64,000 bases of DNA from an uncultured Variovorax sp. (GCA_966211435.1 CBIHOG010000021.1:6353-70352); one strand, 5' to 3'. Counted from the stretch's first letter, positions 14,757 to 33,587 are shown. The notes: generated by a model not told the origin, from the sequence alone. Numbers and translations are program-made.

Positions 14757-16136
14757 TCAGGCGGCGGGCATGACGATGCGGGCCTCGAAGCCCGCCGTCG
14801 CGCCGGGCGGCGGAGAGCTCAGATCCAGGCGGGCGCCGTGCTTCTCGACGATGGTCGAGACAATCGACAGGCCCAGTCCGTAGCCGGCCCGGCTGGACGC
14901 ATGGCGCACGTGGCGCTGGCGCAGCGTGCGCAGCTGAGCCTCGCTCACGCCGGGGCCGAAGTCGCGCACGGCCAAGGTGCAGGGTTGAAGCACCTCGATG
15001 ACCACGCGGCCGCGGCCGTAGCGCAGTGCGTTCTCCACCAGGTTGCGCAGGGCGATCGCGAGCGCGTCGACGTCGCCGAGCGCCATGGGCGGCTCGGTAT
15101 CGGGCACCTTCAACGTCAAGCGTTCGTTGACGCGCGGATCCTGCCAGAACTCCTGCGCCACGGTGCCGGCGAGCTGGACCAGGTCGATCCTCGTGCGCGC
15201 GAGCGACGCGCCCGATTCGGCGCGCGAGAGCTGCAGCAGCTTCTCGGTGCGGTGCCCGAGGATCTGGAGCGCGTCCAGAGCGCCTTCGACGTCCTCGCGC
15301 GTGAGATCGTGCTCCAGCGCCGTCTGCAGCCGCAGCCGCGCCGCGGCCAGTGGCGTGCGCAGCTCGTGCGCGGCATTGGCCGCCAGCGCGCGTTCCACGT
15401 CCAGTGAGTGCGAAAGCCGTTCGAGCAGGCGGTTGACGTGGTCGCCCACCGTGCGCAGTTCCTGCGGCAGGCCGGGCAGCTGGATCGCGCGCAGGTCCGT
15501 GCCGCTGCGCTGCTCGATCTCGCCCGACAGCTGCTGCAGCACCCGCAGCTCGGTGCGGGCAACGTTGCGCAGCACCAGGGCCAGCAGGGGCAGCACGGCG
15601 CCCAGCGGGATGATGAGGCCCAGCAGGGTACGGTTGAGCGCGCGGCGACGCTCGTCCAGCGGGTCGGCGACCTGCAGGAAAAAGTCCATGGTCGGATGCC
15701 GCACGGTGTAGATGCGCCAGGCCTCCGCGTTCGCGAAGCCGGGCGCCAGCGGCACGTCGAAGGCATTGCCCGGCGCCTCGATGGAGCGCAGCAGCACCCG
15801 CTCGTGCAGGTCGACCACCTGGTAGAGCACGGCATCGGTGGGATAGAGCTGCGGCGGCGCGATGAGCGGCGAGCGCGCATCGGGATCCTCGCCCTGCAAC
15901 TTCATCAACTCCTGCACCGCCATGTCGAACATGCGGTGGGAGACTTCGACCAGCTCGTTGTCGAAGTTGTGGTTGATCTCGCGGTCCACGTACCACACCA
16001 CGCCCAGCACGCACAGCAGCCACACCCCGCCTACCCAGAGGATGAGGGTGCGCGTGAGCCGGCCTGCCAGGGAATCGCGGCGGACGAAAGCGCCCAGGCC
16101 CTCGCTGCCGGCCTGTTCCAGGAGCTTCAGATTCAT
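14757..16136 (-). CDS. Sensor histidine kinase (QseC/PmrB/ColS-like)
   Basis: Two TM segments, HAMP, AAHELRTPL H-box, NLVENALRYG, DFGPG, GYGLGL; ATGA overlap with the response regulator. Confidence 0.9.
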   Translation of the reverse strand: MNLKLLEQAGSEGLGAFVRRDSLAGRLTRTLILWVGGVWLLCVLGVVWYVDREINHNFDNELVEVSHRMFDMAVQELMKLQGEDPDARSPLIAPPQLYPTDAVLYQVVDLHERVLLRSIEAPGNAFDVPLAPGFANAEAWRIYTVRHPTMDFFLQVADPLDERRRALNRTLLGLIIPLGAVLPLLALVLRNVARTELRVLQQLSGEIEQRSGTDLRAIQLPGLPQELRTVGDHVNRLLERLSHSLDVERALAANAAHELRTPLAAARLRLQTALEHDLTREDVEGALDALQILGHRTEKLLQLSRAESGASLARTRIDLVQLAGTVAQEFWQDPRVNERLTLKVPDTEPPMALGDVDALAIALRNLVENALRYGRGRVVIEVLQPCTLAVRDFGPGVSEAQLRTLRQRHVRHASSRAGYGLGLSIVSTIVEKHGARLDLSSPPPGATAGFEARIVMPAA

Positions 16137-16819
16137 TGGTCTTCTTTTTCTTCTTCGTCCGGCGAGAAGGAAAGCCGGTAGCCCAGTCCGCGCAGGGTCT
16201 GGATGTGGCTGCGGCCGAGCTTGCGACGCAGGCGGCTGATGAAGACCTCCAGTGTGTTGCTGTCCGCCTCGTCGCCAAAGCCGTAGAGCGCGTCGGCCAG
16301 GTTCTCGCGCGTGTGGATGCGCTCGGGGCGCGTCGCCATCACGCGCAGCAGCGCCCATTCCTTCTGCGTGAGCGTGATGGGGAAGCCGTCCTTGCGTACC
16401 ATGTCGCGGCCGAGGTCGATCTCCAGGCCGCCCAGCTTCAGCACCGGAGAACTGCTGGCGCTGCGGCGGCGCTCGACGGCACGCAGGCGGGCCAGCAGTT
16501 CCGCGGGGTCGTACGGCTTGATGAGGTAGTCGTCCGCGCCGGCGTCAAGGCCGCGGATGCGGTCGGTGACCTGGTCGCGGGCGGTCAGAACGATCACGAT
16601 GGGCCGGTCCCGCAATGCGCGCACGGTGGGTAGCAGCGAGAGGCCGTCGCCGTCGCCCAGGTGCAGGTCCAGCAGCACGGCAGCATACTGCACGGCGGCC
16701 AGCGCCGATCGCGCCTCGGCAAGGCCCGGCGCCACGTCCACGACGAAGGCCTTCGCCATGAGGTAGCTGCACACGGCGTCGGCCAGGGCGGTATCGTCTT
16801 CGACCAGCAATATCCGCAC
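16133..16819 (-). CDS. OmpR-family response regulator (QseB/PmrA/ColR-like)
   Basis: MRILLVEDD, LLDLHL, LTARD, GADDYLIKP, winged helix LRRKLG...TLRGLGY. Confidence 0.93.
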   Translation of the reverse strand: MRILLVEDDTALADAVCSYLMAKAFVVDVAPGLAEARSALAAVQYAAVLLDLHLGDGDGLSLLPTVRALRDRPIVIVLTARDQVTDRIRGLDAGADDYLIKPYDPAELLARLRAVERRRSASSSPVLKLGGLEIDLGRDMVRKDGFPITLTQKEWALLRVMATRPERIHTRENLADALYGFGDEADSNTLEVFISRLRRKLGRSHIQTLRGLGYRLSFSPDEEEKEDQ

Positions 16820-16854
16820 TGCGGCTTCCTTTCAAAAGCTGGAGTCTAGTGCGC

Positions 16855-16887
16855 CTTAAGGCTTCGTTCAGGGCGCGAAACTAAGCT
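16855..16887 (+). promoter_or_regulatory. OmpR-type direct-repeat box and -10 element upstream of pap2 (CTTAAG-N5-GTTCAG-N10-TAAGCT)
   Basis: Read directly; same spacing as the sites at 17612 and 25064. Confidence 0.65.
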
Positions 16888-16895
16888 GGCGGCGA

Positions 16896-17597
16896 ATGAG
16901 CCGTTCTGCTGTCACACATCCCCCCGCTTCTTCCTCCCTCACGCCGCTCTTCTCGCCCTTCGCGCTGACTGTCGCCTCGCTCGTGCTCGTGTTGGCGTGG
17001 GACGCGAGCAAGCTCGACCTGTGGCTGGCGGAGATGATGGGCACGCCCGCTGGTTTTCCGCTGCGGGACAACTGGTTCCTTGTCAACATCATGCACGAGG
17101 GGGCCAAGTGGCTGAGTTGGGCGCTGGCCTTCGCGTTGATCGCGGGAATCCGCTGGCCGGCGGGCTTCCTGCGGCGGGTCTCCTTGCGCGACCGGATGCA
17201 GCTCGTCGCGGCGCTGGTGCTTTCCGTGCTGGCGGTCTCGATCCTCAAGCGCGCGAGCGAGAGCAGTTGCCCTTGGGATTTGCAGGTCTTCGGTGGCGTG
17301 GCGCGTTACGTATCTCATTGGTCCCTCGGCGTGCTGGACGGGGGGCCGGGCAAGTGTTTTCCGGCCGGGCACGCCTCGGCCGCCTTCGCATTCGCAGGGG
17401 GGTATTTCGCACTTCGTCGGTCTTCGCCCGCATTCGCCCGTGCCTGGCTCGTTGCCGCCCTGGCTGCGGGCCTGGTGCTCGGCCTGACGCAGCAGCTTCG
17501 CGGAGCGCACTACATGAGCCACACGCTCTGGACAGGCTGGGTCTGCTGGGCGGTCGGCTATGCCCTCGACGCTGTGCTTCACCGCAAAGATGAATGA
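16896..17597 (+). CDS. PAP2-family membrane phosphatase
   Basis: KRASESSCPW, CFPAGHAS, QQLRGAHYMSH acid-phosphatase motifs; multiple TM segments. Confidence 0.88.
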   Translation: MSRSAVTHPPASSSLTPLFSPFALTVASLVLVLAWDASKLDLWLAEMMGTPAGFPLRDNWFLVNIMHEGAKWLSWALAFALIAGIRWPAGFLRRVSLRDRMQLVAALVLSVLAVSILKRASESSCPWDLQVFGGVARYVSHWSLGVLDGGPGKCFPAGHASAAFAFAGGYFALRRSSPAFARAWLVAALAAGLVLGLTQQLRGAHYMSHTLWTGWVCWAVGYALDAVLHRKDE

Positions 17598-17611
17598 AAC
17601 CTGACCAAGGG

Positions 17612-17644
17612 CTTCAGGGAGATTTCAGTCCCGCTTCTTAGCCT
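17612..17644 (+). promoter_or_regulatory. OmpR-type box and -10 element upstream of eptA (CTTCAG-N5-TTTCAG-N10-TAGCCT)
   Basis: Read directly; ATG follows 6 nt after the -10, which would make the mRNA leaderless. Confidence 0.7.
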
Positions 17645-17650
17645 CTCCGG

Positions 17651-19429
17651 ATGTCCGAATCGTCCGTCACCTCGTCTCGCTTTTCTCCCTCCCCCTCAGA
17701 AGAATCCCGCCCCGGCTCCTCCTCCAGTGCCGGCACCGCACCATCTGGCGCTCCATGGGCGGCGCTTGATCGGTGGTTCTCGCGGCCCCGCTCGGCGCGC
17801 AGCGTGGTGGGCTGGCTCAGCCTGTATCTCGCCGTCGCGGCCAACTGGCCCTTGTGGATCGAACTGGCGCGTATTGGCGGCGCCCCCAGTGTCTATGTGC
17901 CCTCGATCGCCGTGATGGCGCTGCTCACGTTCTGCGGCAGCGCCGCGATACTGTCCTTCACCGCCTGGTCTCGCTGGATGAAGCCGCTGTGGTTTGCGGT
18001 GGTGCTCCTGGCCGCGGTCGTGCAGCACTACATGCTGAGCTACCGCATCGTGATGGATCCGAGCATGGTGGCCAATGCGATGCAGACGGATGCGAACGAA
18101 GTGCGCGACCTGTTGAGCTGGCGCATGCTGCTGAATGTGCTGCTGGTCGCCGCCTTGCCCGGATGGGCGCTCTGGCGCGTGCGCATTCCGCCGATGCGGG
18201 TGGTGTCGCAGCTGTGGCGCAACCTGCTGTTGCTGTTCGCCGTCTTCGCGCTGGCCGCGGCAGCCATCGTCGCCATGAACCGGCAACTGGCGCCGCTGAT
18301 GCGCAACAACGTCCATCTGCGCTACATGATGAATCCGGTCGCGAGCCTGTATTCGACGGGCGCCGCGGTGGGCAGGCCGTTGTTCAAGCACAGCCGCAAG
18401 CTCATCCCGGTTTCGGGCGGCGCGGCCCTCGGCGCCAGCTACGCGGCGCAGAAGAAGCCGCCGCTGTTCGTCCTCGTGGTGGGCGAGACGGCGCGCGCCG
18501 ACCATTTCGCGCTCAACGGCTATGCGCGCAACACGACGCCGGAACTTGCCGCGCGCAACGTGTTGAGTTATCGCGAAGTCCACTCCTGCGGGACCAACAC
18601 GCTCGCCTCGGTACCCTGCATGTTCTCGCCGCTGGGCAAGCAGGCCTTCGAGGCCCGCAAGGACGACTACGAGAACCTGATGGATGTGCTGCAGGCTTCG
18701 GGCCTCGCGGTTTTCTGGCTCGACAACCAGGCCGGCGGCTGCAAGGGCGTGTGCGACCGCATCCCGCACGCATCCGCCTTCGATGGGCTCGACGAAGGCG
18801 TGAAGAACGCGCTGTGCGAAGGCGACGAGTGCCTTGACGACGTGATGCTCAAGGGCCTGGACGCACGCCTGGCTGCGCTGCCGGCCGAGCGCCGCGCCAA
18901 GGGTGTGGTGCTGGTAATGCACCAGATGGGAAGCCACGGGCCTGCCTACTACAAGCGTTCTTCCGCCGACATGAAGCGCTTCGTGCCCGAGTGCAAGACC
19001 AACGCGCTGGCTGAGTGCAGCCACGCTGAACTGATCAACGGCTTCGATAACTCGATTGCCTATACCGACCGCTTTCTTGGCCAGACGATCGACTGGCTCA
19101 AGGGCCAATCCGCGCAGTACGACACGGGCCTGCTCTACCTGAGCGACCACGGCGAATCGCTGGGCGAATATGGCCTTTTCCTGCACGGTGTGCCTTACAG
19201 TTTCGCGCCCGAGGTCCAGAAGCACATCCCGATGGTGACCTGGTTCGCCGAGGGGATGACCACGCGGCGTCGACTCTCGCGCTCCTGCATGCAGGCGGGG
19301 CTGGACATTCCGCTCACGCACGACAATCTTTATCACACGGTCCTCGGCCTGATGGACGTGACGACGCCGACGTACAAGGTCGGGCTGGATGCGCTGGCTT
19401 CGTGCCGGGGGAACGGCGCGGGCGCCTGA
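17651..19429 (+). CDS. eptA: Lipid A phosphoethanolamine transferase (EptA/MCR family)
   Basis: 5 TM N-terminus, VVGETAR, SCGTNTLASVPCMFS (catalytic Thr), GSHGPAYY, SDHGESLGE, LHG. Confidence 0.92.
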   Translation: MSESSVTSSRFSPSPSEESRPGSSSSAGTAPSGAPWAALDRWFSRPRSARSVVGWLSLYLAVAANWPLWIELARIGGAPSVYVPSIAVMALLTFCGSAAILSFTAWSRWMKPLWFAVVLLAAVVQHYMLSYRIVMDPSMVANAMQTDANEVRDLLSWRMLLNVLLVAALPGWALWRVRIPPMRVVSQLWRNLLLLFAVFALAAAAIVAMNRQLAPLMRNNVHLRYMMNPVASLYSTGAAVGRPLFKHSRKLIPVSGGAALGASYAAQKKPPLFVLVVGETARADHFALNGYARNTTPELAARNVLSYREVHSCGTNTLASVPCMFSPLGKQAFEARKDDYENLMDVLQASGLAVFWLDNQAGGCKGVCDRIPHASAFDGLDEGVKNALCEGDECLDDVMLKGLDARLAALPAERRAKGVVLVMHQMGSHGPAYYKRSSADMKRFVPECKTNALAECSHAELINGFDNSIAYTDRFLGQTIDWLKGQSAQYDTGLLYLSDHGESLGEYGLFLHGVPYSFAPEVQKHIPMVTWFAEGMTTRRRLSRSCMQAGLDIPLTHDNLYHTVLGLMDVTTPTYKVGLDALASCRGNGAGA

Positions 19430-19449
19430 GCCGGCGCGCTCAAGGCGGA

Positions 19450-20247
19450 TCAAGGTTCGCCGAGTCGGTCCGTCCGCAGCCGGTGACGCTCGTCCATGAC
19501 AGACCGGGCCGCGAGGTAGACGGCGCCCGCAGCGGCAAGGCCGCCCGCGCCCGTGAGCAGGAAGAGCAGCAGGATCTGGTACTTCGCCGCGTCGATGGGG
19601 TCCATGCCGGCAAGCAACTGGCCGGTCATGATGCCCGGCAGCGTGATCACGCCGGCCGCGGACATCTGATTGATGATAGGGATCATCCCCCGGCGGATGG
19701 CGGCGCGGATGAGGTCCGCCAGCGCCTCCCGCCCGGTCGCGCCGAGGGCGAGCCTCGCCTCGATCACCGCGCGGCGCGCGAGCACCTCGCCGAAGAACCC
19801 GTCCAGGCCAAGGCTGGCCGCGTTCAGCACCGTTCCCAGCACGATGCCCATGAGCGGGATGGCGTAACGCGGGTCATCCCAGGGCTCGGGTCGGATGGCG
19901 GTCGCCAGAGCCAGCGCCACCGTCCCGACGCTGGAAAGCGTGACCACGAGCGCGCCGATGCGGTAGTTGCCCCCACCCTTCAGACGGTGCTGCGGACGCA
20001 CGGCCACTTCGCGCGCCGCGGCGAGGATCATCAGGGCGATGATGGCAAGCGTCGCGGCGGCGGAGGATGCACCGAAAACGATCCGCAGCACAAAGCCCAC
20101 CAGCAGCAACTGGACCACCATGCGCGCCGCGGCCCACAGCATCTGCCGATGCAAGCGCAGGCGAAGGAGCAGGGACGCGGCCGCATTGATCACCACCAGC
20201 GACGCGGCCAGGGCGAGGTCCGTGCCGTGGAGGGCGACAGTGCTCAT
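19450..20247 (-). CDS. UPF0014/FetB(YbbM)/STAR2-like ABC permease
   Basis: RMVVQLLLVG, IPLMGIVLG, ITLPGIMTGQLLAG, AAKYQI family motifs. Confidence 0.88.
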   Translation of the reverse strand: MSTVALHGTDLALAASLVVINAAASLLLRLRLHRQMLWAAARMVVQLLLVGFVLRIVFGASSAAATLAIIALMILAAAREVAVRPQHRLKGGGNYRIGALVVTLSSVGTVALALATAIRPEPWDDPRYAIPLMGIVLGTVLNAASLGLDGFFGEVLARRAVIEARLALGATGREALADLIRAAIRRGMIPIINQMSAAGVITLPGIMTGQLLAGMDPIDAAKYQILLLFLLTGAGGLAAAGAVYLAARSVMDERHRLRTDRLGEP

Positions 20248-20308
20248 CGGCGTGCTTTCGTGCTACGAACGACGGCGGGGGCTTGTCCGAGGCGGCCCGG
20301 CGCGGCAC

Positions 20309-20923
20309 TCATGCGGGGCGCAGCCTGCGCTCGGCCATCTCGAACATCCGCTGGGCCATCCGCTTGGCCTGTTCGTGCGAATGCGTGACGAGGACGATGG
20401 CGAGCCCGGCCTCCATGCGCCGCCGCAGGAGGGCTTCCATTGCCAGGGTCGAGGCTGGGTCCAGCGCGGCGGCCGGTTCGTCGAGCAGCAGCGCGTCGGG
20501 GCGAGGCGCCAGCGAGCGTATGAGCGCAAGCCGTTGGCGCTCGCCGGTGGAAAGTCTCGCGATGTCGGTGCGGAGTAGCGCCGGCGCCAAGCCGAGCGCA
20601 GGCATGAACTCCAGCAGCGCCGAGGCGTCCGACGCGCGGAAGTGCGCCGCGCCGGTGGGCGCCCACCATGCCGGCTCGGCTGCCTGGTAGACGACCTTGC
20701 GTCGCCACTGCGGCGCGGACCAGGTCTCGCGGCGCCTGCCGCTCAGTTCGACGGTGCCCGTGCCGGGGTCGAGGTCGGCGAGCAATCGCAGGAAGACGCT
20801 CTTGCCCGCGCCCGACTTGCCGACGATCACCGTGCATTCGCCGCGGTGAATGTCGATGTCGAAGGGGCCGCCATGCGGCGAGCGCAACTCGCGGATGCGC
20901 AGGAGTGGGTGTTCTGCGGTCAT
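20309..20923 (-). CDS. FetA(YbbL)/STAR1-like ABC ATP-binding protein
   Basis: C-terminal part of track ORF 20309..21739; GKSGAGKS, LSTGERQR, LLLDEP, VTHS; ATG overlaps the deacetylase stop. Confidence 0.85.
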   Translation of the reverse strand: MTAEHPLLRIRELRSPHGGPFDIDIHRGECTVIVGKSGAGKSVFLRLLADLDPGTGTVELSGRRRETWSAPQWRRKVVYQAAEPAWWAPTGAAHFRASDASALLEFMPALGLAPALLRTDIARLSTGERQRLALIRSLAPRPDALLLDEPAAALDPASTLAMEALLRRRMEAGLAIVLVTHSHEQAKRMAQRMFEMAERRLRPA

Positions 20924-21804
20924 GTCACGACACCGCATCCGCTGTGCGAAAGGGGGGCGAGGGAGACAAGGCCCGTGGGCGTCTCGACTGGGAAGACAGT
21001 GTCGCGCAGCACCACATACTCCCGCAGTCTCGCGGCGGCGATCGGGTCCGAGGGCGTCTTGTCCAGCGCCGGGTGACACATCAGCACATCGCCGGTGCGG
21101 CAGATGTCGAGCCAGCCTCGCAGGAGCGTCCGGTAGTCGCTGCGGCTGCCAGTGACGCCGGTGAAGTCGTAGACGCCGAGCAGGCGGCAACTCGTCGGGA
21201 TGCCGCGCCGCCCCGCCGCGGCCATCATCCCGACACCTCCCATCGCGAAAATGAGATCCTCCTTCGAACGAGGGATGCGGCGCATCCTGGCGGGGGCGGT
21301 GCTCCGGATCCAGGGCGCCAAAGTGCCGTATCTGTTGGCGATGACATCGGCCAGCACATCCGCCACGCCAGGGAGTTGATGCACATGCCGGTGTCCGTCC
21401 ACGAACGAGGGTGGGCGGTCGAGGCCGTCCTCGAATCGTCCCAACTGTTCCATGATTCGCGCGCGCATGCTCTCGGGCCGGAGAAGGCCCAGGTAACCCT
21501 TGAGGATCCAGGGGCCCAAGGCCGCCTCGCCGTGCCGGCCTCGCGAAGGACTGGTGAGATCGAAATGAAGTCCTATCTCGAGCCGCGAGGCGGAGAGGGC
21601 GCGCAGCTCCCGTGACCCGGCCGCCCAGGCAGGGCGCATGACCATGCACCCCGTCGAGGAAAGCGAACCCCGCTCGGCGAGGTCGAGCACCGCCTCGTTG
21701 ATGCCGGTGCTCAAGCCGAAGTCGTCCGCGCAGACGCAAAGATGGCGGCTGGGTGCCGCATTGGCCCTCTGCGCGATGCTACGCTCGTGCATGGCGTCGG
21801 ACAT
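20920..21804 (-). CDS. YdjC/ChbG-family carbohydrate deacetylase (LgmC/NaxD-like)
   Basis: CADDFG, IGLHFDLT, DGHRHVH, LMCHP; start could alternatively be 21792. Confidence 0.87.
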   Translation of the reverse strand: MSDAMHERSIAQRANAAPSRHLCVCADDFGLSTGINEAVLDLAERGSLSSTGCMVMRPAWAAGSRELRALSASRLEIGLHFDLTSPSRGRHGEAALGPWILKGYLGLLRPESMRARIMEQLGRFEDGLDRPPSFVDGHRHVHQLPGVADVLADVIANRYGTLAPWIRSTAPARMRRIPRSKEDLIFAMGGVGMMAAAGRRGIPTSCRLLGVYDFTGVTGSRSDYRTLLRGWLDICRTGDVLMCHPALDKTPSDPIAAARLREYVVLRDTVFPVETPTGLVSLAPLSHSGCGVVT

Positions 21805-21823
21805 ATCGAGAGGATCGCGGGGA

Positions 21824-22222
21824 ATGAAGCGGCATCATGCCGAGGTTGCGCGGTTCATCGTGGTCGGAACGGCCGCCGCCGCCGTCCACTTGCTGATCGT
21901 CATGATGCTCGTGACCTGGCTGCGCTGGCAGCCGCTCGGGGCGAACCTGTGCGGCTGGCTGGTCGCGTTCTGGGTTTCCTTCTTCGGTCACTATGGTTGG
22001 ACTTTCAGGGGCAGCGCGCTGGGCGTCTCCGCCTCGGCGAGGCGCTTCTTCGTTCTGTCCGCGGGTGGCTTCGCCGTCAACGAGGCCCTGTACGCCGCCG
22101 CGCTGCGATGGTCCGCGCTGCGGTTCGACTGGCTGCTGGCCTGCGTGCTGGTCTTCATGGCAGTGCTGACTTTTGTGGCGAGTCGGCTGTGGGCGTTTCG
22201 AGGCAGCGGGGGGCGCGCGTAG
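21824..22222 (+). CDS. GtrA-family small membrane protein (undecaprenyl-P-sugar flippase-like)
   Basis: RFIVVG, ANLCGWLVAFWVSF..H..WTF, RLWAF; four TM segments; start MKRHH. Confidence 0.87.
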   Translation: MKRHHAEVARFIVVGTAAAAVHLLIVMMLVTWLRWQPLGANLCGWLVAFWVSFFGHYGWTFRGSALGVSASARRFFVLSAGGFAVNEALYAAALRWSALRFDWLLACVLVFMAVLTFVASRLWAFRGSGGRA

Positions 22223-23732
22223 CGCTGCCTTCGAATCGCCAGATGGCTGCCTCTGCGTTCGCCGCGACCGGGCGTGCCTCCGCCAGCCAGGGATGAGCGA
22301 GTGGCGCCTGAGTCGCGCCGATCACCCATGTCGCGCGCGGTACGCACAATGTTTCGCCGAGCCGGGATGGATCGACCAGCAGCCTGGACGCCAGCGCGGC
22401 GTCGAAGCGCCCCGCGTCGCGAAGTTCCCTCCGCCAGTCGTCGCGCCGGTCCACCGCTTCCGGCGACCAGTCACTGCTGACCATCACCGGTTCACGCAGC
22501 GACCAGTGAATCGGGACCTCGTAGTAGTAGGCGTCGAGCATCAGCACCTGGTCGCCTGGTGCGACGGTCTCGCCCGAGGGCAAGCGGATGCTTGCACGTG
22601 GCTGTACCGCAACCGACTCCACCGCGACGATCGCGCCCACGCATGCCAGGCCGGCCAGCGCCGCAGTCCAGCGCAGTGGGTGGGACGCGAGGCCGCGTTC
22701 GCCTGCCGCGGCCAATGCAGCCCTTGCGACAAGGTAGGCCAGGGGTGGCAAGGCCGGCAGCACATAGCCGATCAGCTTGGAGCGCGGCAGCGAGAAGAAG
22801 ACGACGATGCAGGCCCCCCAGATCGTCATGAGCCAGTCAAGATCCCGCGTGCGCGGCAAGGTCCGCGGGCCCTTGCGCGGAACGAGGAGCCAGGCGATCC
22901 AGGGCACCGTCAGTCCCGCGATGACCGGCAGGTAGAACCAGAACGGGTGTGCGTTGTTGAAGCCGGAAGTGGCGAAGCGCCGGAAGTGCTGCGTGACGAT
23001 GAAGTAATCGAAGAAGGCCGGATAGCGCCACTGCATCGCGATCAGCCATGGCCCGGCGGTCGCGATCAGCACGCCCCAGCCGGGCAGCCAGGCCATCAGC
23101 CGCGCGGCCTGCAGGCGCCGTGTGGCCGCGGTCCACGCCAGGAAGACCAAAGCCGGGAGCATCAGGCCGATCAGGCCCTTCGCCAGCACGCCGAGCGCGG
23201 CGAAGGCGTAGGCGGCGGCCAAGGCGCCGCGCCATTCACCCTCCTGCTCCCTCGAGAGGGCCGCGTGCGCGGCCAGCAGCACGGTGGCGCTGATGCAGCC
23301 GGCGACCAGCATGTCGAGGTTGGCGAACTGCGCCGCTGCGAAGAAGAAGGGCATCGTGACCAGGACGACGGCGGAGAGTCTTGCAACGGTATGACCCGCC
23401 CAACGGCGAAGAAACAGGAAGAGGGAGGCCGCCGCCAGCGTGCCGCCCAAGATCGACGGCAGCCGGGCCGCCCATTCGCTCGGCCCCAGCACTGTCATTG
23501 CAGCCGCGGCGATCCAGTAGAACAAGGGTGGCTTATGGAAGAAGGGGAGGCCGTCCAGGCGGGGCACCAGCCAGTCGCCCGAACGAAGCATCTCGAACGC
23601 GACCCCTGCATAGCGGCCTTCGTCCGGCGTCATCAGTGGTCGGAGCCAGGCGGTCGCCGCCAGCCAGAGGAAGATGGCCGCCACGACGATGAAGGAGCCC
23701 CGCGACGCACGGAGGCCGTGCGAAGGTTTCAT
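22155..23732 (-). CDS. ArnT/GT83(PMT-like) lipid-carrier-dependent glycosyltransferase (LgmB-like)
   Basis: PDEGRYA, FFHKPPLFYW, EWAARLPS, NLDML, LAKGLIG, SKLIGYVLP; ATGA overlap with GT2. Confidence 0.9.
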   Translation of the reverse strand: MKPSHGLRASRGSFIVVAAIFLWLAATAWLRPLMTPDEGRYAGVAFEMLRSGDWLVPRLDGLPFFHKPPLFYWIAAAAMTVLGPSEWAARLPSILGGTLAAASLFLFLRRWAGHTVARLSAVVLVTMPFFFAAAQFANLDMLVAGCISATVLLAAHAALSREQEGEWRGALAAAYAFAALGVLAKGLIGLMLPALVFLAWTAATRRLQAARLMAWLPGWGVLIATAGPWLIAMQWRYPAFFDYFIVTQHFRRFATSGFNNAHPFWFYLPVIAGLTVPWIAWLLVPRKGPRTLPRTRDLDWLMTIWGACIVVFFSLPRSKLIGYVLPALPPLAYLVARAALAAAGERGLASHPLRWTAALAGLACVGAIVAVESVAVQPRASIRLPSGETVAPGDQVLMLDAYYYEVPIHWSLREPVMVSSDWSPEAVDRRDDWRRELRDAGRFDAALASRLLVDPSRLGETLCVPRATWVIGATQAPLAHPWLAEARPVAANAEAAIWRFEGSATRAPRCLETPTADSPQKSALP

Positions 23733-24742
23733 GGCGCGGGCGCCTGGCCCAGCCCGCGTCCCACGTCCTTCTTGACCACGTAGAGGGGGCGTCCCTTCAC
23801 TTCCTCGAAGATGCGCGCGACGTACTCGCCCAGGATGCCGGTCGAGATCATCTGCATGCCGATGAGGAACATCAGGCTCACGACGATGGTCGTCCACCCG
23901 GAGACGGCGTTTCCCGCGAACAGGTGCTCCACGACGAGATACAAGCCATAGCCGAGGGCCGGCACGGCCAGCATGAGGCCGACCACGCTGATCATCCGCA
24001 GCGGCCAGGTGGTGAAGGAGGTCAGGCCGTCGAGTGCATGGGCGAACAGGCGCCATGCGCTGAAGGTGCTGACGCCATGCAGGCGCGGCGCCGGCGTGTA
24101 CGGCAACGCCACCGCCTTGAATCCGACCCAGGCATAAAGGCCCTTCATGAAGCGACTGCGTTCAGGCAAGCTCAGCAGCGCGTCGACGACCTTGCGGTCC
24201 ATCAGCCGGAAATCACCGGCATCCTTCGGCAGCGCGTACCGGCCGGAAGTGTTCACGAGCCTGTAGAAGAGGCCCGCGCCGACGCGCTTGAGGGGCGACT
24301 CCTCGTCGCGCGCTTCGCGTACCGCATAGACGACCTCGGCGCCCCGTGCCCACTCGGCCACCATTGCCGGGATGAGCGACGGCGAATGCTGCAGGTCGCC
24401 GTCGAGCACCAGCACCGCGTCGCCGCGCGCCGCCTCCAGTCCGGCGGTGAGCGCGGCTTCCTTGCCGAAATTGCGCGACAGCGAGATGCACCGGAAGCCC
24501 GGCAGTTCGCACCAGACGGCAGCCACCGCCGCGGTTTCGTCGGTGCTTCCGTCGTCGACCACGATGATTTCCCAGTCGAGGTGCGTGTCGAAAAGGATCT
24601 CCTCCAATCGGGAGAGCAGTTCGTTGAGGTTTGCGGCCTCGTTGAAGCAGGGGATGACGCAACTGACGCTGCGGTGGGGCGCCGTCAGCTGAACAGGCTG
24701 GCAGTCGAGGGTGCTGCCGAGCATTCGCGGCGGGCCGTTCAT
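23729..24742 (-). CDS. GT2 undecaprenyl-phosphate glycosyltransferase (ArnC/GtrB/LgmA-like)
   Basis: VIPCFNEA, VDDGSTD, LSRNFGKEAAL, LDGDLQH, GDFRLMDR, two C-terminal TM segments. Confidence 0.92.
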   Translation of the reverse strand: MNGPPRMLGSTLDCQPVQLTAPHRSVSCVIPCFNEAANLNELLSRLEEILFDTHLDWEIIVVDDGSTDETAAVAAVWCELPGFRCISLSRNFGKEAALTAGLEAARGDAVLVLDGDLQHSPSLIPAMVAEWARGAEVVYAVREARDEESPLKRVGAGLFYRLVNTSGRYALPKDAGDFRLMDRKVVDALLSLPERSRFMKGLYAWVGFKAVALPYTPAPRLHGVSTFSAWRLFAHALDGLTSFTTWPLRMISVVGLMLAVPALGYGLYLVVEHLFAGNAVSGWTTIVVSLMFLIGMQMISTGILGEYVARIFEEVKGRPLYVVKKDVGRGLGQAPAP

Positions 24743-24833
24743 GCCTGGGCTCCGTGGCGCCCGGGCCGTTCAGAGCATGCGGGAATCTGCGCCCGCGCGG
24801 AGGTGCCCGGGCATGGAGTTTGTGGCAGCGGAT

Positions 24834-25025
24834 TCATGACCGGAACGCGTCGGGTTGATCGATGCGTACGGACGACAGTACGAAGAGCGTGGCCTCGCGC
24901 TGCGCCGCACGATCCGCATGGGGATGAGCAGCCAGGAATGGCTGCGGCGCCGCAAGCAGCAGCGCGGAAGGAGACCACACCATCCGGTGGGCGGCAATGA
25001 GTCGACGAAGGCCTGCGAGCAACAT
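24834..25025 (-). CDS. Possible 63-aa leaderless small ORF (hypothetical)
   Basis: ATG at the predicted transcription start; basic then hydrophobic N-terminus; codon usage is A/T-rich at third positions, so coding support is weak. Confidence 0.25.
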   Translation of the reverse strand: MLLAGLRRLIAAHRMVWSPSALLLAAPQPFLAAHPHADRAAQREATLFVLSSVRIDQPDAFRS

Positions 25026-25031
25026 GCCGCG

Positions 25032-25064
25032 ACTCTATGGAGCGCGGATGAAGCCAAGCTGAAT
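25032..25064 (-). promoter_or_regulatory. OmpR-type box and -10 element upstream of the GT2-arnT operon (ATTCAG-N5-CTTCAT-N10-TAGAGT)
   Basis: Read directly on the minus strand; spacing identical to the two plus-strand sites; ATG 6 nt after the -10. Confidence 0.6.
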
Positions 25065-25109
25065 CCGCGCTTCAGCTTCGGGGCGGTGTTCTCAGCCACG
25101 CGTGGCGTC

Positions 25110-25217
25110 CGGCATTGCCCGTGCCATCAGCCCGACCGGCGCGAAGTCCTTCAGCGGGTTTTAGTGCAGGGTGGCGAAGAGGCCGGGGTTGATGGTCATG
25201 GTGCCGCCGGAGCCGGT
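25110..25217 (-). pseudogene. Fragment of a Bug/TctC substrate-binding protein gene with an in-frame stop
   Basis: Manual translation TGSGGTMTINPGLFATLH*NPLKDFAPVGLMARAMP matches the Bug consensus ...INPxLyxxLpYdPlkDFaPv...; TAA at 25161-25163 replaces the conserved Tyr codon. Confidence 0.7.
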
Positions 25218-25223
25218 CGCGCA

Positions 25224-25265
25224 GGCGGCCTGAGCCGCCCGACCTCACGGCGGCCTCAGGCCGCC
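25224..25265. terminator. GC-rich hairpin at the 3' end of the dioxygenase gene
   Basis: Arms ggcggcctgagccgcc / ggcggcctcaggccgcc; no U-tract. Confidence 0.35.
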
Positions 25266-26134
25266 ATGAGGCGTGCCTCGGGTACGTCCTCGATGGTGGT
25301 GCGGCGCAGTTCACGGCGTTCCGCGATGTCGTAGCGCCGCCCGCGGTGCAGCGTGCAGCGGTTGTCCCACATCACGAGGTCGTTCACCTGCCATTCGTGG
25401 CTGTAGACGAACTGCCGCTGCGTCGCGTGCTCCAGCAGATCCGAGAGATAGAGCCGCGCCTCGGCTGTGGGCCAGCCCATGATCTGGCGCGCATGCACGC
25501 CCACGAAGAGCACCTTGCGGCCCGAGCCCGGGTGCGTCTCCACCAGCGGCCAGACGGCCGGCGGGATGGCCTTCTTCTGGTCGTCGGTGTAGGCCTCGTC
25601 GCCCAGCAGGATGCGGGTGTGCAGGGCGTAATGTTCAGCGCTCAGGCCTTCGATCTCGGCCTTGGTGCGCTCCGGCAGCGTGTCGTAGGCCGCGCGCAGG
25701 TCGGTGAACTCCGTCCTGCCGCCCCAGCTCGGCAACACCAGCGCATGCAGCATCGAGTAGGCGGCGCGCGGGTTCTGGAAGGAACTGTCGCTGTGCCACA
25801 GCTGGTTGGCGAAATTCGAGAGGTTCTTCGGCGAATCGCGCCGCGCCACCTTGCCCTGCGCGTCGACGTTGGAGATGTCGATGAGCCGCTCGTCCTCCAG
25901 CCGCTCCGGCCGGTTGAAGACCTTCTTCAGCCCGAGGTCGAGCGGCCCGAAGGCCTTGGCGAAGTCGATCTGCTGCTGGCCGCCGAGCGCCTGGCCGCGC
26001 CAGACCAGCACGGCGTACTGGTTCATCGCGGCGTTGATGGCGCGCACGTCCGGGTCCGAAAGCGGCTGCGTGATGTCGATGCCGCTGGCTTCGGCGACGA
26101 AGACGGAATGGAGGGGCTTGAGCTCGAGTGGCAT
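25256..26134 (-). CDS. tfdA: TfdA-like Fe(II)/alpha-ketoglutarate dioxygenase (2,4-D/phenoxyalkanoate family)
   Basis: NFANQLWHSDSSFQ, EHYAL..R.LLGD, WPLV.TH.GSGRK, DLVMWDNRC.LHRGRRYDI..RRELRR; these segments match Cupriavidus pJP4 TfdA as recalled from memory, beyond generic TauD motifs. Confidence 0.78.
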   Translation of the reverse strand: MPLELKPLHSVFVAEASGIDITQPLSDPDVRAINAAMNQYAVLVWRGQALGGQQQIDFAKAFGPLDLGLKKVFNRPERLEDERLIDISNVDAQGKVARRDSPKNLSNFANQLWHSDSSFQNPRAAYSMLHALVLPSWGGRTEFTDLRAAYDTLPERTKAEIEGLSAEHYALHTRILLGDEAYTDDQKKAIPPAVWPLVETHPGSGRKVLFVGVHARQIMGWPTAEARLYLSDLLEHATQRQFVYSHEWQVNDLVMWDNRCTLHRGRRYDIAERRELRRTTIEDVPEARLMAA

Positions 26135-26139
26135 GTTGT

Positions 26140-27129
26140 TTATTCGGCCTGGATGTTGGCTTCGCGGACCACCACGGCCCAGCGCTTCATTTCGGATCGC
26201 ACGAAGGCATCGAACTGCTCGGGCTTCGAGGCGACGACTTCCATGCCCTGTTCCTCGATGCGCTTGCGCATCTCGGGGTTGCGCAGCACCTTCTCGGTGT
26301 CGGCCTGGATCTTCTGGACGACGGCCCGCGGCGTGGCGTGCGGCGCGACGAAGCCGAGCAGGGCGTTCACGCTGAAGCCCGGCAGGGTCTCGGCGACCGT
26401 CGGGTAGTCGAAACCCTCGACACGCTTGTCGCCCAGCGTCGCGATCATCTTCATGCGGCCGGCCTTGACGTAGGGAAGGATCGACAGGAAGGGGTCGACC
26501 ACGAGGTCGATGCGGCCACCCATCAGCTCGGTATGCGCCGGCGCGCTGCCCTTGAAGGGCGCATGCAGCATGTCGAACTTCGCCTCGCGCTTGAGCAGTT
26601 CCGCGCCCAGGTGCGTGGTGCTGCCGGCGCCGGGGGTCCCATAGGTCAGCTTGCCAGGGTTCTTCTTCGCGTAGGCGATGAGTTCCGGCAGCGTGTTGAA
26701 TGGCGCGTCCGGCCGCGCGACGATCGCGAGTTGCAGGTTGGCGATCTGCGTGATGCCGGAGAGATCCTTGACGGTGTCGTAGGGCAGGCTCTTGCGCAGC
26801 GAGGGGTTGACCGCGAAAGAGGAGTTCACCATGCCGAAGGTCAGGCCGTCGGCCGGCGCCTTGGCGACGAAGTCCGCGCCGATGGCCGTGCCGGCGCCGG
26901 GCTTGTAGTCGATGATGACCGGTTGGCCCCAGGCCTCCTGCAGCTTCAGCGCGATCAGCCGGCCGACGGTGTCGGTGGGCCCGCCGGGCGCGAAGGGAAT
27001 GATGATCTTGACCGGGCCCCTGGGGAAATCCTGGGCGGCCGCTTCGAGGGTGGTGCCCAGGCCGGCGGCCAGGAGCCCGCCGGCCATGAGGAGCTGGCGG
27101 CGGTTGGGATGTGGGGTTTGTCTCGGCAT
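26140..27129 (-). CDS. Bug/TctC tripartite tricarboxylate transporter substrate-binding protein
   Basis: Tat-like RRQLL signal, IIPFAPGGPTD, KPGAGTAIG, HAPFKGSAPA. Confidence 0.93.
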   Translation of the reverse strand: MPRQTPHPNRRQLLMAGGLLAAGLGTTLEAAAQDFPRGPVKIIIPFAPGGPTDTVGRLIALKLQEAWGQPVIIDYKPGAGTAIGADFVAKAPADGLTFGMVNSSFAVNPSLRKSLPYDTVKDLSGITQIANLQLAIVARPDAPFNTLPELIAYAKKNPGKLTYGTPGAGSTTHLGAELLKREAKFDMLHAPFKGSAPAHTELMGGRIDLVVDPFLSILPYVKAGRMKMIATLGDKRVEGFDYPTVAETLPGFSVNALLGFVAPHATPRAVVQKIQADTEKVLRNPEMRKRIEEQGMEVVASKPEQFDAFVRSEMKRWAVVVREANIQAE

Positions 27130-27137
27130 GATTTTAT

Positions 27138-27150
27138 GGAACAGTGTTTT
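27138..27150. promoter_or_regulatory. Putative IclR operator copy 1 (GGAACAGTGTTTT)
   Basis: Pseudo-palindrome repeated at 27201-27213 in the divergent bug/iclR intergenic region. Confidence 0.55.
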
Positions 27151-27200
27151 GAAATAATAAAGGTTCCAGCCTCGACGTCAACCCGACTGAGGGAAAATAC

Positions 27201-27213
27201 GGAACGGTGTTTC
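27201..27213. promoter_or_regulatory. Putative IclR operator copy 2 (GGAACGGTGTTTC)
   Basis: 11 of 13 bases identical to copy 1. Confidence 0.55.
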
Positions 27214-27229
27214 AGGAAAACAGAATCGC

Positions 27230-28021
27230 ATGGCTGAGCAGAACAGTGGATCAGGCAAGGAGGAAGTCACGGCGCTCGCCCGGGGTCTGGCGGTGCTGAA
27301 GGCGGTCGGGGAGGCGGCGGGCCCGCTGAGCAACCGCGAGTTGGCGGATGTCACCGGCATCCCGAAGCCGACCGTCTCGCGACTCGCGGCCACGCTGGTG
27401 GGGAGCGGCTACCTGCGCCAGGCGGCCGACACCGAGCGCTTCAGCCTCGGCCCCGCGCTGCTCGACATGAGCAACCGCTACTTGCGCCACTTCGACCTGC
27501 GCGGCGTCGCGCGGCCGCATCTCACGGCATTGGCCGAGTTCGCGGGCGCCAGCGTGCACTTGGGGGTGCGGGATGACCTCGACATGTTGATCATCGATTC
27601 CGTGCGCCCGCGCACGGCGCTCATCAGCTCGCGCATTGACGTGGGCTCGCGCATGACCATCGCGACGTCCGCCGCCGGACGGGCCTATCTCGCCGCGCTG
27701 CCGCACGACGAACAGGCCGAGTTGCTGGAACGGATCAGGCAGGCGAGCGGCGAGAACTGGGCAACCCTGGAGCCGCGGCTCATGGCCGGGCTGGAGGATC
27801 ACGCGAAGTTGGGCTACTGCAGCTCGTTCGGCGAATGGCATCCGCACATCCACGCGCTCGGCTTCTCCTTGCGCGGCCCGCGCGGCGAACGCTATGCGGT
27901 GAGCTGCGGCGGGCCCGCCTACCTGCTTCCCAGGGATAGCATGGTTGCCCGCATCGCGCCGAAGTTGCTCGAGACGGTGCAGCGCATCAACGCGGAAATC
28001 GGTACCGCGCCCACGGACTGA
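27230..28021 (+). CDS. IclR family transcriptional regulator
   Basis: LARGLAVL, TGIPKPTVSRL HTH, TSAAGRAYL, IclR effector domain. Confidence 0.93.
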   Translation: MAEQNSGSGKEEVTALARGLAVLKAVGEAAGPLSNRELADVTGIPKPTVSRLAATLVGSGYLRQAADTERFSLGPALLDMSNRYLRHFDLRGVARPHLTALAEFAGASVHLGVRDDLDMLIIDSVRPRTALISSRIDVGSRMTIATSAAGRAYLAALPHDEQAELLERIRQASGENWATLEPRLMAGLEDHAKLGYCSSFGEWHPHIHALGFSLRGPRGERYAVSCGGPAYLLPRDSMVARIAPKLLETVQRINAEIGTAPTD

Positions 28022-28033
28022 GCGGGCCGTCGC

Positions 28034-28681: not shown

Positions 28682-28710
28682 GGCCGCACTTTACCGCAAA
28701 CCGCTCTTTG

Positions 28711-28723
28711 AATTAATAATTAC
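28711..28723. promoter_or_regulatory. AT-rich near-palindrome, possible GntR operator
   Basis: AATTAATAATTAC in an otherwise GC-rich divergent intergenic region. Confidence 0.35.
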
Positions 28724-28803
28724 AGATGGGTTAGACTCGCCTTGAACTGTCACGTCCCAGCGAACACACTCGCGACACCCGACGATCTTGCAAAGCGGCG
28801 CCC

Positions 28804-30963
<2,160 letters not shown>

Positions 30964-30965
30964 GC

Positions 30966-32050: not shown

Positions 32051-32054
<4 letters not shown>
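30966..32054 (+). CDS. meaB: Methylmalonyl-CoA mutase-associated GTPase
   Basis: [33 protein letters not shown]. Confidence 0.95.
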
Positions 32055-33583
<1,529 letters not shown>

Positions 33584-33587
33584 GGCC

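What the first reader, a model, noticed from the sequence alone, without database searches (positions are those of the whole stretch)
14757..25064. Self-contained lipid A/envelope remodelling island with its own two-component system
Seen: within about 10 kb lie an OmpR-family TCS, PAP2, EptA, a FetAB-like ABC pair, a YdjC deacetylase, GtrA, an ArnT-like transferase and GT2, inserted between core genes. Established: EptA adds phosphoethanolamine and ArnT-type enzymes add amino sugars to lipid A phosphates; similar gene sets are controlled by PmrAB in enterics and ColRS in Pseudomonas in response to metals or cationic peptides. Inference: two charge-neutralising routes, a phosphatase and a putative metal exporter are wired to one sensor. 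I do not know of such a unit being described for this lineage.
Basis: partly seen in the sequence, partly recalled or inferred. Interest (0 to 1): 0.75.

Follow-up and report, generated by a model that had tools for sequence, protein, structure and literature searches.

The report
PmrAB-like lipid A remodelling gene cluster
A soil Variovorax keeps a sensor-regulator pair next to genes that probably add phosphoethanolamine and an amino sugar to lipid A, probably under one shared promoter motif; this is a familiar kind of envelope-defence system, brought together here by a chromosome rearrangement and not by an inserted island.

Summary
All the listed genes are present, but their order and strands differ from the finding. 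The window is from a Variovorax genome. The region has two parts. HK-RR, PAP2 and EptA form a genus-wide core block at this position (EptA in 116 of 121 genomes). FetB-FetA-YdjC-GtrA-ArnT-like-GT2 is accessory (ArnT-like 41/121, FetB 31/121), lies elsewhere in relatives, and here sits at a synteny breakpoint right after EptA. No mobility genes, terminal repeats or GC shift were found. The sugar module is the Bordetella Lgm / Francisella-Acinetobacter NaxD type, which adds a hexosamine. It is not an L-Ara4N system: ArnT and ArnC equivalog cut-offs are missed and no ArnA or ArnB is found in the genome. The inference that one sensor controls the set gets real support. One direct-repeat box (TTCAG-type half-sites 11 bp apart) sits at -38 from the ATG of PAP2, of EptA and of the head of the GT2 operon. 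It is conserved across the genus and rare elsewhere in this genome. FetAB is start/stop-coupled to YdjC and recurs in box-controlled units within Variovorax, but not outside it. The closest precedent is the A. baumannii PmrAB regulon (pmrC plus naxD). Verdict: a new member of a known kind, of moderate interest. The same scan noted the promoter copies, lgm likeness, FetA coupling and antisense gtrA on this stretch.

The parts
14757..16136 (-). Sensor histidine kinase (459 aa; 2 TM segments, periplasmic loop of about 115 aa, HisKA + HATPase_c)
   Evidence: Pfam 2CSK_N, HisKA and HATPase_c. Best NCBIfam match is PmrB, 143 bits against a cut-off of 314. The start codon overlaps the RR stop. TM segments at 27-51 and 166-193, and one ExxE motif at 61-64.
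16133..16819 (-). OmpR-family response regulator (228 aa), PmrA-like
   Evidence: Response_reg and Trans_reg_C domains. Best NCBIfam match is PmrA, 203.5 bits against a cut-off of 330. 89-92% identical in relatives.
16856..16872 (+). Box 1: direct repeat TTAAGG-N5-TTCAGG at -40 from the PAP2 ATG; -10-like TAAGCT at 16882-16887, then 8 nt to the ATG. It lies in the 76-bp RR|PAP2 divergent region.
   Evidence: Sequence read. Equivalent boxes upstream of PAP2 in most relatives. 21.8 bits with the weight matrix.
16896..17597 (+). PAP2-family membrane phosphatase
   Evidence: Pfam PAP2. Best NCBIfam match is 'PAP2 family lipid A phosphatase', 75.5 bits against a cut-off of 275.
17613..17629 (+). 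Box 2: TTCAGG-N5-TTCAGT at -38 from the EptA ATG; -10-like TTAGCC at 17638-17643, then 7 nt to the ATG
   Evidence: Sequence read. Conserved position and layout upstream of EptA in all relatives examined. 23.6 bits, the top hit in the genome.
17651..19429 (+). EptA/PmrC-type phosphoethanolamine--lipid A transferase
   Evidence: EptA_B_N and Sulfatase domains. NF028537 scores 517 bits against a cut-off of 500, so it passes. Present in 116 of 121 genus genomes.
19450..20247 (-). FetB/YbbM-like ABC permease (UPF0014)
   Evidence: PF03649 at 247 bits. FetB equivalog 137.6 bits against a cut-off of 410. Present in 31 of 121 genus genomes. No solved relative.
20309..20923 (-). FetA/YbbL-like ABC ATPase; its ATG overlaps the YdjC stop (ATGA)
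   Evidence: Frame found, start fixed, ABC_tran domain.
20920..21804 (-). YdjC-family deacetylase (NaxD/LgmC-like)
   Evidence: PF04794, E 3.7e-42. Conserved directly downstream of the ArnT-like gene in nearly all 80 related loci.
21824..22222 (+). GtrA-family small membrane protein (putative polyprenyl-phosphate-sugar flippase), antisense to its neighbours
   Evidence: PF04138. The same antisense placement occurs in about 35 Burkholderiales and Thiobacillus-type loci, but the gene is missing from most Variovorax operons.
22155..23732 (-). ArnT-like GT-C glycosyltransferase (LgmB/FlmK-like)
   Evidence: PMT_2 and PMT domains. ArnT equivalog 188 bits against a cut-off of 567. Matches the Cupriavidus ArnT structure 5EZM at E 9e-46 over residues 15-375.
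23729..24742 (-). GT2 polyprenyl-phosphate glycosyltransferase (ArnC/LgmA/FlmF2-like)
   Evidence: Glycos_transf_2 domain. ArnC equivalog 187.6 bits against a cut-off of 529.
24834..25025 (-). 63-aa remnant of 'orf149', the conserved first gene of Variovorax lgm operons. The PAP2b gene that normally follows it is absent here.
   Evidence: BLASTP E 4e-9 against L097 orf149. The orf149-PAP2b pair precedes GT2 in nearly all Variovorax loci.
25047..25063 (-). Box 3: TTCAGC-N5-TTCATC at -38 from the ATG at 25025; -10-like TAGAGT at 25032-25037, then 6 nt to the ATG
   Evidence: Sequence read. 16.9 bits, rank 20 of about 12 million genome positions, with a matrix trained without this site. The homologous promoter is conserved upstream of orf149 across the genus.
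25224..25265 (.). Hairpin just after the TauD stop; would insulate the lgm promoter from upstream read-through
   Evidence: Inverted repeat I24.

Best explanation
This is a chromosomal PmrAB-like envelope-remodelling regulon of a Variovorax, not a mobile island. The histidine kinase senses an envelope or periplasmic signal whose nature is unknown; metal, acid pH or cationic peptides are suggested only by analogy. It phosphorylates the OmpR-family regulator. The regulator then binds a direct-repeat box (TTCAG/TTAAG-type half-sites 11 bp apart) that takes the place of a -35 element at three promoters. Promoter 1 drives PAP2, a lipid or lipid-carrier phosphatase. Promoter 2 drives EptA, which transfers phosphoethanolamine to a lipid A phosphate. 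Promoter 3 drives GT2 > ArnT-like and, by read-through or an unmapped internal promoter, YdjC > FetA > FetB. GT2 would make undecaprenyl-P-HexNAc, YdjC would deacetylate it to Und-P-HexN, GtrA would flip it, and the ArnT-like enzyme would transfer the hexosamine to a lipid A phosphate, as in the Bordetella Lgm and Francisella/Acinetobacter NaxD pathways. FetAB rides on the same transcript as a co-regulated exporter. Shown here: gene identities, the three overlapping start/stop junctions, the conserved box and promoter layout, genus-wide synteny, and the rearrangement breakpoints. Inferred: that this regulator binds the box, leaderless transcription, the lipid A acceptor, the identity of the sugar, the signal, and the FetAB substrate.
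For: ATGA overlaps at RR/HK, GT2/ArnT-like and YdjC/FetA come. All three boxes share one layout: box at about -38, then 8-9 nt, a -10-like hexamer, 6-8 nt, and the ATG. A regex for the box finds 15 matches in the 6-Mb genome on both strands, 3 of them within this 8.2 kb. A weight matrix trained only on EptA and PAP2 sites from 9 genomes scores the third site at 16.9 bits, rank 20 genome-wide. The box is conserved upstream of EptA in all relatives examined and upstream of PAP2 in most. The promoter at the head of the lgm operon is conserved across Variovorax, Xylophilus and Xenophilus even where lgm is far from the TCS. No sigma-70 consensus promoter is found at any of these gene starts (the scan's one weak match lies inside GT2), which fits activator-dependent promoters. 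GT2-ArnT-(GtrA)-YdjC is a conserved module in most of the 80 loci fetched. Other Burkholderiales carry TTAAGT-N5-TTAAGT about 100-130 nt upstream of GT2, and many have an RR-HK pair next to the module. No ArnA or ArnB equivalog is found in the 96%-complete genome. In the literature, A. baumannii PmrA binds TTTAAG-N5-TTTAAG at pmrC and naxD (PMC10927774), lgmA-C are required for GlcN on Bordetella lipid A (PMC4993483), and NaxD is a YdjC-family Und-P-HexNAc deacetylase (PMC11279074). EptA, lgm and FetAB re-associate in other arrangements elsewhere in the genus, each with a box.
Against: The regulator and kinase miss the PmrA and PmrB equivalog cut-offs. In most Variovorax the lgm-head box is a variant (ATCAGG...TTCACA) that scores low with the EptA/PAP2 matrix, so a paralogous regulator could serve it. 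Box 3 lies about 320 nt upstream of GT2, with a degenerate ORF in between. No promoter was identified for ydjC-fetAB, and the antisense gtrA lies between ArnT-like and YdjC. Box 3 helped shape the regex, although it was left out of the matrix. The acceptor of the ArnT-like enzyme is inferred from homology and context only.
Confidence: 0.66

Rival explanations
1. The GT2/GtrA/ArnT-like/YdjC module decorates an acceptor other than lipid A phosphate, such as core oligosaccharide, O-antigen, exopolysaccharide or a periplasmic protein. It would act as a generic three-component extracytoplasmic glycosylation system that happens to include a deacetylase.
For: GT2 + GtrA + GT-C three-component systems modify many different glycans (PMC11127046). 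The ArnT-like protein aligns with the solved ArnT only over its N-terminal 360 residues and misses the ArnT equivalog cut-off. The best NCBIfam match of the GT2 is PgfS, a Gram-positive glycosylation enzyme.
Against: The YdjC + ArnC-like + ArnT-like combination is the signature of lipid A hexosamine addition in Bordetella, Francisella and Acinetobacter (PMC4993483, PMC11279074). The operon shares the EptA promoter layout. In other Variovorax it is fused or placed divergently to EptA and PAP2, and PAP2b genes sit inside the operon in most of the genus.
Confidence: 0.13
2. The adjacency is an accident of rearrangement. The FetAB-lgm segment is not controlled by the neighbouring TCS, and box 3 is either a relic or the site of a different, paralogous OmpR-family regulator.
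For: In relatives lgm, FetAB and the TCS block lie at three separate loci. Most lgm-head boxes differ systematically from the EptA/PAP2 boxes. Paralogous RR-HK pairs (43-44% identity) sit beside FetAB or lgm in L022, L145 and L146, with a TTAAGG-N5-TGAAG box. Many FetAB loci have no box at all.
Against: In this genome box 3 is closer to the EptA/PAP2 consensus (16.9 bits) than the genus-typical variant (4-7 bits). The chance of a site this strong falling in the 500-bp upstream region in the right orientation is about 8e-4. Position, -10 hexamer and ATG spacing are identical to the EptA promoters.
Confidence: 0.17
3. The region is a horizontally acquired genomic island carrying its own regulator.
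For: The complete 10-kb arrangement was found in no other genome searched. The ArnT-like gene and FetB are accessory in the genus.
Against: The TCS-PAP2-EptA half is core and syntenic with ETF-QO and orf266 across the genus. There is no integrase, IS element, tRNA-type junction or terminal repeat. GC content is uniform. The best matches of every gene are Variovorax.
Confidence: 0.04
4. The ArnT-like route adds L-Ara4N, as in enterics, Pseudomonas and Burkholderia.
For: ArnT and ArnC are among the best named NCBIfam matches of the two transferases.
Against: Both scores are far below the equivalog cut-offs (188 against 567, and 188 against 529). No ArnA or ArnB equivalog is found in the genome, while the E. 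coli control passes. A YdjC deacetylase stands where ArnD would be.
Confidence: 0.03

Closest known systems
Acinetobacter baumannii PmrCAB plus NaxD regulon
   Same: One OmpR-family TCS drives both a pEtN transferase and a YdjC-type deacetylase needed for hexosamine addition to lipid A. It acts through a 6-bp direct repeat with a 5-bp gap (TTTAAG-N5-TTTAAG) at both promoters (PMC10927774).
   Different: Here the half-sites are mostly TTCAG and not TTAAG. eptA is divergent from the TCS and not in a pmrCAB operon. The complete GT2/ArnT-like/GtrA/YdjC set is clustered. A PAP2 gene and FetAB are included. The RR and HK miss the PmrA/PmrB equivalog cut-offs.
Bordetella lgmABCD locus (lipid A glucosamine modification)
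   Same: It contains an ArnC-like GT2, an ArnT-like GT-C, a deacetylase and a fourth small gene, and it adds GlcN to lipid A phosphates. lgmA-C are required and lgmD is dispensable (PMC4993483, PMC11895810). Alcaligenaceae loci L066 and L078 share the module.
   Different: Bordetella controls lgm through BvgAS, whereas here a PmrA-like box is present. I could not align Bordetella proteins directly. The equation of LgmD with GtrA and the exact step order are from memory and not from a paper I could read.
Francisella FlmF2 / NaxD / FlmK (lipid A galactosamine)
   Same: The chemistry follows the same logic: Und-P-HexNAc is made, deacetylated by a YdjC-family enzyme and transferred by an ArnT-like enzyme (PMC11279074).
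   Different: The Francisella genes are dispersed and constitutive, and the sugar is GalN. The sugar here is unknown (GlcN or GalN).
Salmonella / E. coli PmrAB (BasRS) with eptA and arnBCADTEF
   Same: It has the same regulatory logic and box type (YTTAAK direct repeat, cited in PMC10927774), and it also has two charge-reducing routes.
   Different: No Ara4N biosynthesis genes are present here. The HK has one ExxE motif; from memory, Salmonella PmrB has two.
Helicobacter pylori LpxE-EptA pair and mcr-pap2 pairs
   Same: A PAP2 phosphatase gene sits directly beside a pEtN transferase gene. The second NCBIfam match of the PAP2 here is 'PAP2 near MCR-1'.
   Different: Both PAP2 scores are far below their cut-offs. 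Whether this PAP2 dephosphorylates lipid A, recycles Und-PP or acts like LpxT is untested. The H. pylori two-step mechanism is recalled from memory.
E. coli FetAB (YbbL/YbbM) and rice STAR1/STAR2
   Same: An ABC ATPase is paired with a UPF0014 permease.
   Different: The FetB equivalog cut-off is missed (137.6 against 410). The roles in iron export (E. coli) and UDP-glucose export with aluminium tolerance (rice) are recalled from memory. Start/stop coupling to a sugar deacetylase is not part of either system.

Membership tests
PmrA/PmrB (BasR/BasS) two-component system | OmpR-family regulator (receiver + winged helix) paired with a HisKA/HATPase_c kinase with two TM segments | tested here: met
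PmrA/PmrB (BasR/BasS) two-component system | Scores above the NCBIfam equivalog cut-offs for PmrA (330) and PmrB (314) | tested here: not met
   203.5 and 143.4 bits. These are the best-ranking families but fall below the cut-offs.
PmrA/PmrB (BasR/BasS) two-component system | Direct-repeat box (YTTAAK-N5-YTTAAK type) overlapping the -35 region of lipid A modification genes | tested here: inconclusive
   A related box with the same 6+5+6 geometry is present at three promoters, but mostly with TTCAG half-sites. Binding was not tested.
PmrA/PmrB (BasR/BasS) two-component system | Periplasmic metal-binding ExxE motifs in the sensor | tested here: inconclusive
   One ExxE at residues 61-64, next to TM1.
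EptA/PmrC/MCR phosphoethanolamine--lipid A transferases | EptA_B_N membrane domain plus sulfatase-type catalytic domain, and a score above the NF028537 cut-off | tested here: met
   517.4 bits against 500, with both Pfam domains. The E. coli EptA equivalog is not met (449.9 against 660).
Lgm / Flm-NaxD lipid A hexosamine pathway | Co-located ArnC-like GT2, ArnT-like GT-C and YdjC-family deacetylase | tested here: met
   The synteny is conserved in most of the 80 loci fetched.
Lgm / Flm-NaxD lipid A hexosamine pathway | HexN (+161 Da) on a lipid A phosphate that depends on these genes | not testable with these tools
   Needs lipid A mass spectrometry of wild type and mutants.
Arn (L-Ara4N) pathway | ArnT and ArnC equivalogs, plus the ArnA and ArnB biosynthesis enzymes | tested here: not met
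   188.3 against 567 and 187.6 against 529. The best ArnA-type formyltransferase match is 114.5 against 316, and the best ArnB match is 234.4 against 631, while the E. coli control passes.
FetAB (YbbL/YbbM) iron exporter | UPF0014 permease with an adjacent ABC ATPase | tested here: met
   PF03649 at 246.7 bits, and ABC_tran.
FetAB (YbbL/YbbM) iron exporter | FetB equivalog score (TIGR00245 cut-off 410) | tested here: not met
   137.6 bits.
LpxE/LpxF-type lipid A phosphatases (PAP2) | Score above the NF028538 cut-off (275) | tested here: not met
   75.5 bits. The protein is a PAP2 superfamily member only.
Genomic island / mobile element | Mobility genes, terminal repeats or a tRNA junction, atypical composition, and patchy presence as one unit | tested here: not met
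   None were seen. GC is uniform. The left half is genus core.

The most novel reading that the evidence does not exclude
The FetAB/STAR1-STAR2-type ABC pair is a working part of the lipid A remodelling response in Variovorax and not a bystander. It might export or flip a sugar or lipid intermediate, or remove the metal that triggers the sensor. This would explain why it has been captured repeatedly, in at least five different arrangements, into box-controlled units: YdjC>FetAB here and in V. defluvii, box-EptA-FetAB in G050, FetAB divergent from lgm with a 23-bit box in G116, and PAP2b-FetAB in CF079.
Probability: 0.2. Interest if true: 0.6.

Novelty: new member of a known kind. Interest (0 to 1): 0.35.

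Why it matters
It gives a concrete, testable regulon model for lipid A charge modification in Variovorax, a common soil and rhizosphere genus for which I found no such description in the held literature. The model includes defined binding boxes, predicted leaderless start sites and a predicted HexN + pEtN lipid A. It also shows how envelope-remodelling modules (EptA, PAP2, lgm, FetAB) shuffle around the chromosome while keeping the same promoter box. Finally, it flags a UPF0014 ABC exporter, a family with poorly known substrates, as repeatedly recruited to that regulon. None of this changes the general picture of PmrAB-type systems.

Tried and rejected
1. The obvious 197-aa ORF at 20244-20837 as FetA: it has no domain hit, and the real gene lies in another frame.
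2. A simple reciprocal inversion to explain the juxtaposition: the DNA after EptA in relatives maps to contig C45, but the neighbour of TauD in relatives maps to C4 and C38, so the history is more complex.
3. Extra regulon members from genome-wide box hits: few sit in front of plausible genes, so the regulon looks local.
4. A general link between FetAB and lipid A genes across the order: none of 16 non-Variovorax FetAB loci has lgm, EptA or PAP2 neighbours.
5. A promoter for ydjC or gtrA in their 19-bp divergent gap: nothing recognisable.
7. The primary Lgm and NaxD papers (PMC3841722, PMC4136009, PMC3636864): not held, so the pathway steps rest on secondary citations and, where marked, on memory.
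8. Terminal repeats around 19300-25400: only chance GC-rich matches.

Full report
**What is there.** The window is about 68% GC, so I sorted real genes from spurious overlapping ORFs with Pfam and NCBIfam. The corrected map is:

- HK 14757-16136(-)
- RR 16133-16819(-)
- PAP2 16896-17597(+)
- EptA 17651-19429(+)
- FetB 19450-20247(-)
- FetA 20309-20923(-)
- YdjC 20920-21804(-)
- GtrA 21824-22222(+)
- ArnT-like 22155-23732(-)
- GT2 23729-24742(-)

Three junctions are ATGA start/stop overlaps: RR/HK, GT2/ArnT-like and YdjC/FetA. FetA was missed at first because it lies in a different frame from the obvious ORF.

**Lineage and conservation.** The best relatives of the ArnT-like protein are all Variovorax, at 56-68% identity. 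The nearest genome held is Variovorax sp. CF079, at about 79% nucleotide identity.

ETF-QO, orf266, HK, RR, PAP2 and EptA are syntenic in all six relatives I examined in detail. The TCS matched in 17 of 18 same-genus genomes. EptA is present in 116 of 121 genus genomes. The left half of the 'island' is therefore core chromosome.

The ArnT-like gene is in 41 of 121 genomes and FetB in 31 of 121. In relatives these two lie at separate loci, away from the TCS.

In six relatives, the DNA that begins 10-60 nt after the EptA stop maps to another contig of this genome, C45. The window's right flank, from TauD onward, is itself an 85%-identical conserved block located elsewhere in relatives. Its neighbour there maps to yet other contigs.

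The 5.8-kb FetAB-lgm segment thus sits at a synteny breakpoint between two core blocks. I found no mobility genes, no terminal repeats and no GC shift.

**The sugar module.** GT2-ArnT-like-(GtrA antisense)-YdjC is conserved across many Burkholderiales and Thiobacillus-type genomes. Most Variovorax carry a variant, orf149-PAP2b-GT2-ArnT-YdjC, with no GtrA. The window keeps GtrA, has only a 63-aa stub of orf149 (24834-25025) and lacks PAP2b.

The transferases miss the ArnT and ArnC equivalog cut-offs. The 96%-complete genome has no ArnA or ArnB equivalog, whereas the E. coli control does. With a YdjC deacetylase in place, the module matches the Bordetella Lgm and Francisella/Acinetobacter NaxD logic. 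In that logic Und-P-HexNAc is made, deacetylated, flipped and transferred to a lipid A phosphate (PMC4993483, PMC11279074, PMC11127046). The acceptor and the sugar are inferred, not shown.

**Regulatory wiring.** Upstream of PAP2, of EptA and of the head of the GT2 operon lies a 6+5+6 direct repeat of TTCAG/TTAAG-type half-sites at about -38 from an ATG. It is followed by 8-9 nt, a -10-like hexamer and 6-8 nt.

- A regex for the box finds 15 matches in the whole genome, three of them here.
- A weight matrix trained only on EptA and PAP2 sites from nine genomes ranks the third site 20th of about 12 million positions. That gives a chance of about 8e-4 of such a site falling in that spot and orientation.
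- The box and its spacing are conserved upstream of EptA in all relatives examined and upstream of PAP2 in most.
- The promoter at the head of the lgm operon keeps the same layout across Variovorax, Xylophilus and Xenophilus, even where lgm is unlinked from the TCS. Its half-sites there are a variant, ATCAGG...TTCACA.
- Other Burkholderiales have TTAAGT-N5-TTAAGT upstream of GT2, often next to an RR-HK pair.

The geometry matches the PmrA box shown experimentally at pmrC and naxD in A. baumannii (PMC10927774). The fixed 6-8 nt between the -10-like hexamer and the ATG suggests leaderless transcripts, which is an inference. I could not identify a promoter for ydjC-fetAB.

**FetAB.** Its ATG overlaps the YdjC stop, so co-translation with the sugar deacetylase is likely. 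Within Variovorax, FetAB lies within a few kb of lipid A genes in about 9 of 24 loci, in several arrangements:

- YdjC>FetAB here and in V. defluvii
- FetAB divergent from the lgm operon, with a 23-bit box, in G116
- PAP2b>FetAB in CF079
- box (25.6 bits)>EptA>FetA>FetB in G050
- beside a paralogous TCS, with a TTAAGG-N5-TGAAG box, in three loci

Many other FetAB loci have no box. None of the 16 FetAB loci from other genera in the order has such neighbours. I therefore read FetAB as a cassette recurrently recruited to this regulon within the genus, and not as a general pathway component. Its substrate is unknown.

**Comparison and verdict.** Functionally this works like the A. baumannii PmrAB regulon (pEtN plus NaxD-dependent hexosamine) combined with a Bordetella-type lgm module. 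The formal PmrA/PmrB, E. coli EptA, ArnT/ArnC, FetB and LpxE/F equivalog thresholds are not met. The broader lipid A pEtN transferase family threshold is met.

I found no description for Variovorax in the held literature. But it is not an island, it is not an Ara4N system, and it is not a new kind of system. It is a new member of a known kind. The FetAB recruitment and the apparently leaderless promoter layout are the parts worth an experiment.

Noticed in passing
L097:11872-12321(-) and homologs in L001-L041; window remnant at 24834-25025(-): 'orf149' is a protein of about 150 aa with no Pfam hit and two hydrophobic stretches. It is the conserved first gene of lgm operons in Variovorax, Xylophilus and Xenophilus, is followed by a PAP2 gene, and has three paralogs in L022. 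Its function is unknown.
   Followed up: partly
Loci L001-L080: GtrA and the orf149-PAP2b pair are almost mutually exclusive in lgm operons. Type A has orf149-PAP2b and no GtrA (L001 keeps a GtrA remnant inside the end of ArnT). Type B has GtrA and no orf149-PAP2b. The window is intermediate.
   Followed up: partly
L040, L051, L053, L057, L059, L067, L072, L073, about 100-130 nt upstream of GT2: A canonical PmrA-type box (TTAAGT-N5-TTAAGT) precedes the lgm-like operon in Comamonas, Piscinibacter, Acidovorax, Ramlibacter and Rhizobacter genomes. In Thiobacillus-type loci an RR-HK pair is divergent from GT2.
   Followed up: partly
G000 contig C34:34706-35689 (L088): The genome holds a second, distant ArnT-like GT-C gene (35% identity over residues 13-337). 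I did not examine its context.
   Followed up: no
G000 contig C8:83071-83115: Four tandem GTTCAG-type half-sites at 11-bp spacing. They may be another site for an OmpR-family regulator. The ORF downstream looks spurious.
   Followed up: partly
L135, L137, L138, upstream of FetA: A TAGCAT-N6-ATG start leads a 17-codon hydrophobic mini-ORF whose stop overlaps the FetA ATG. This could be a leader peptide for FetAB in genomes where FetAB has no box.
   Followed up: no
window 25256-33600: The TauD/TfdA-like dioxygenase, TctC receptor and IclR block to the right is an 85%-identical conserved block in three of the five relatives searched (G006, G010, G044). It is therefore core-like in the genus, not a strain-specific orphan.
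   Followed up: partly
L173 (G089), L174 (G055), L175 (G050): Second EptA copies occur fused to or divergent from lgm operons or FetAB in other Variovorax, each with a strong box (14-26 bits).
   Followed up: partly
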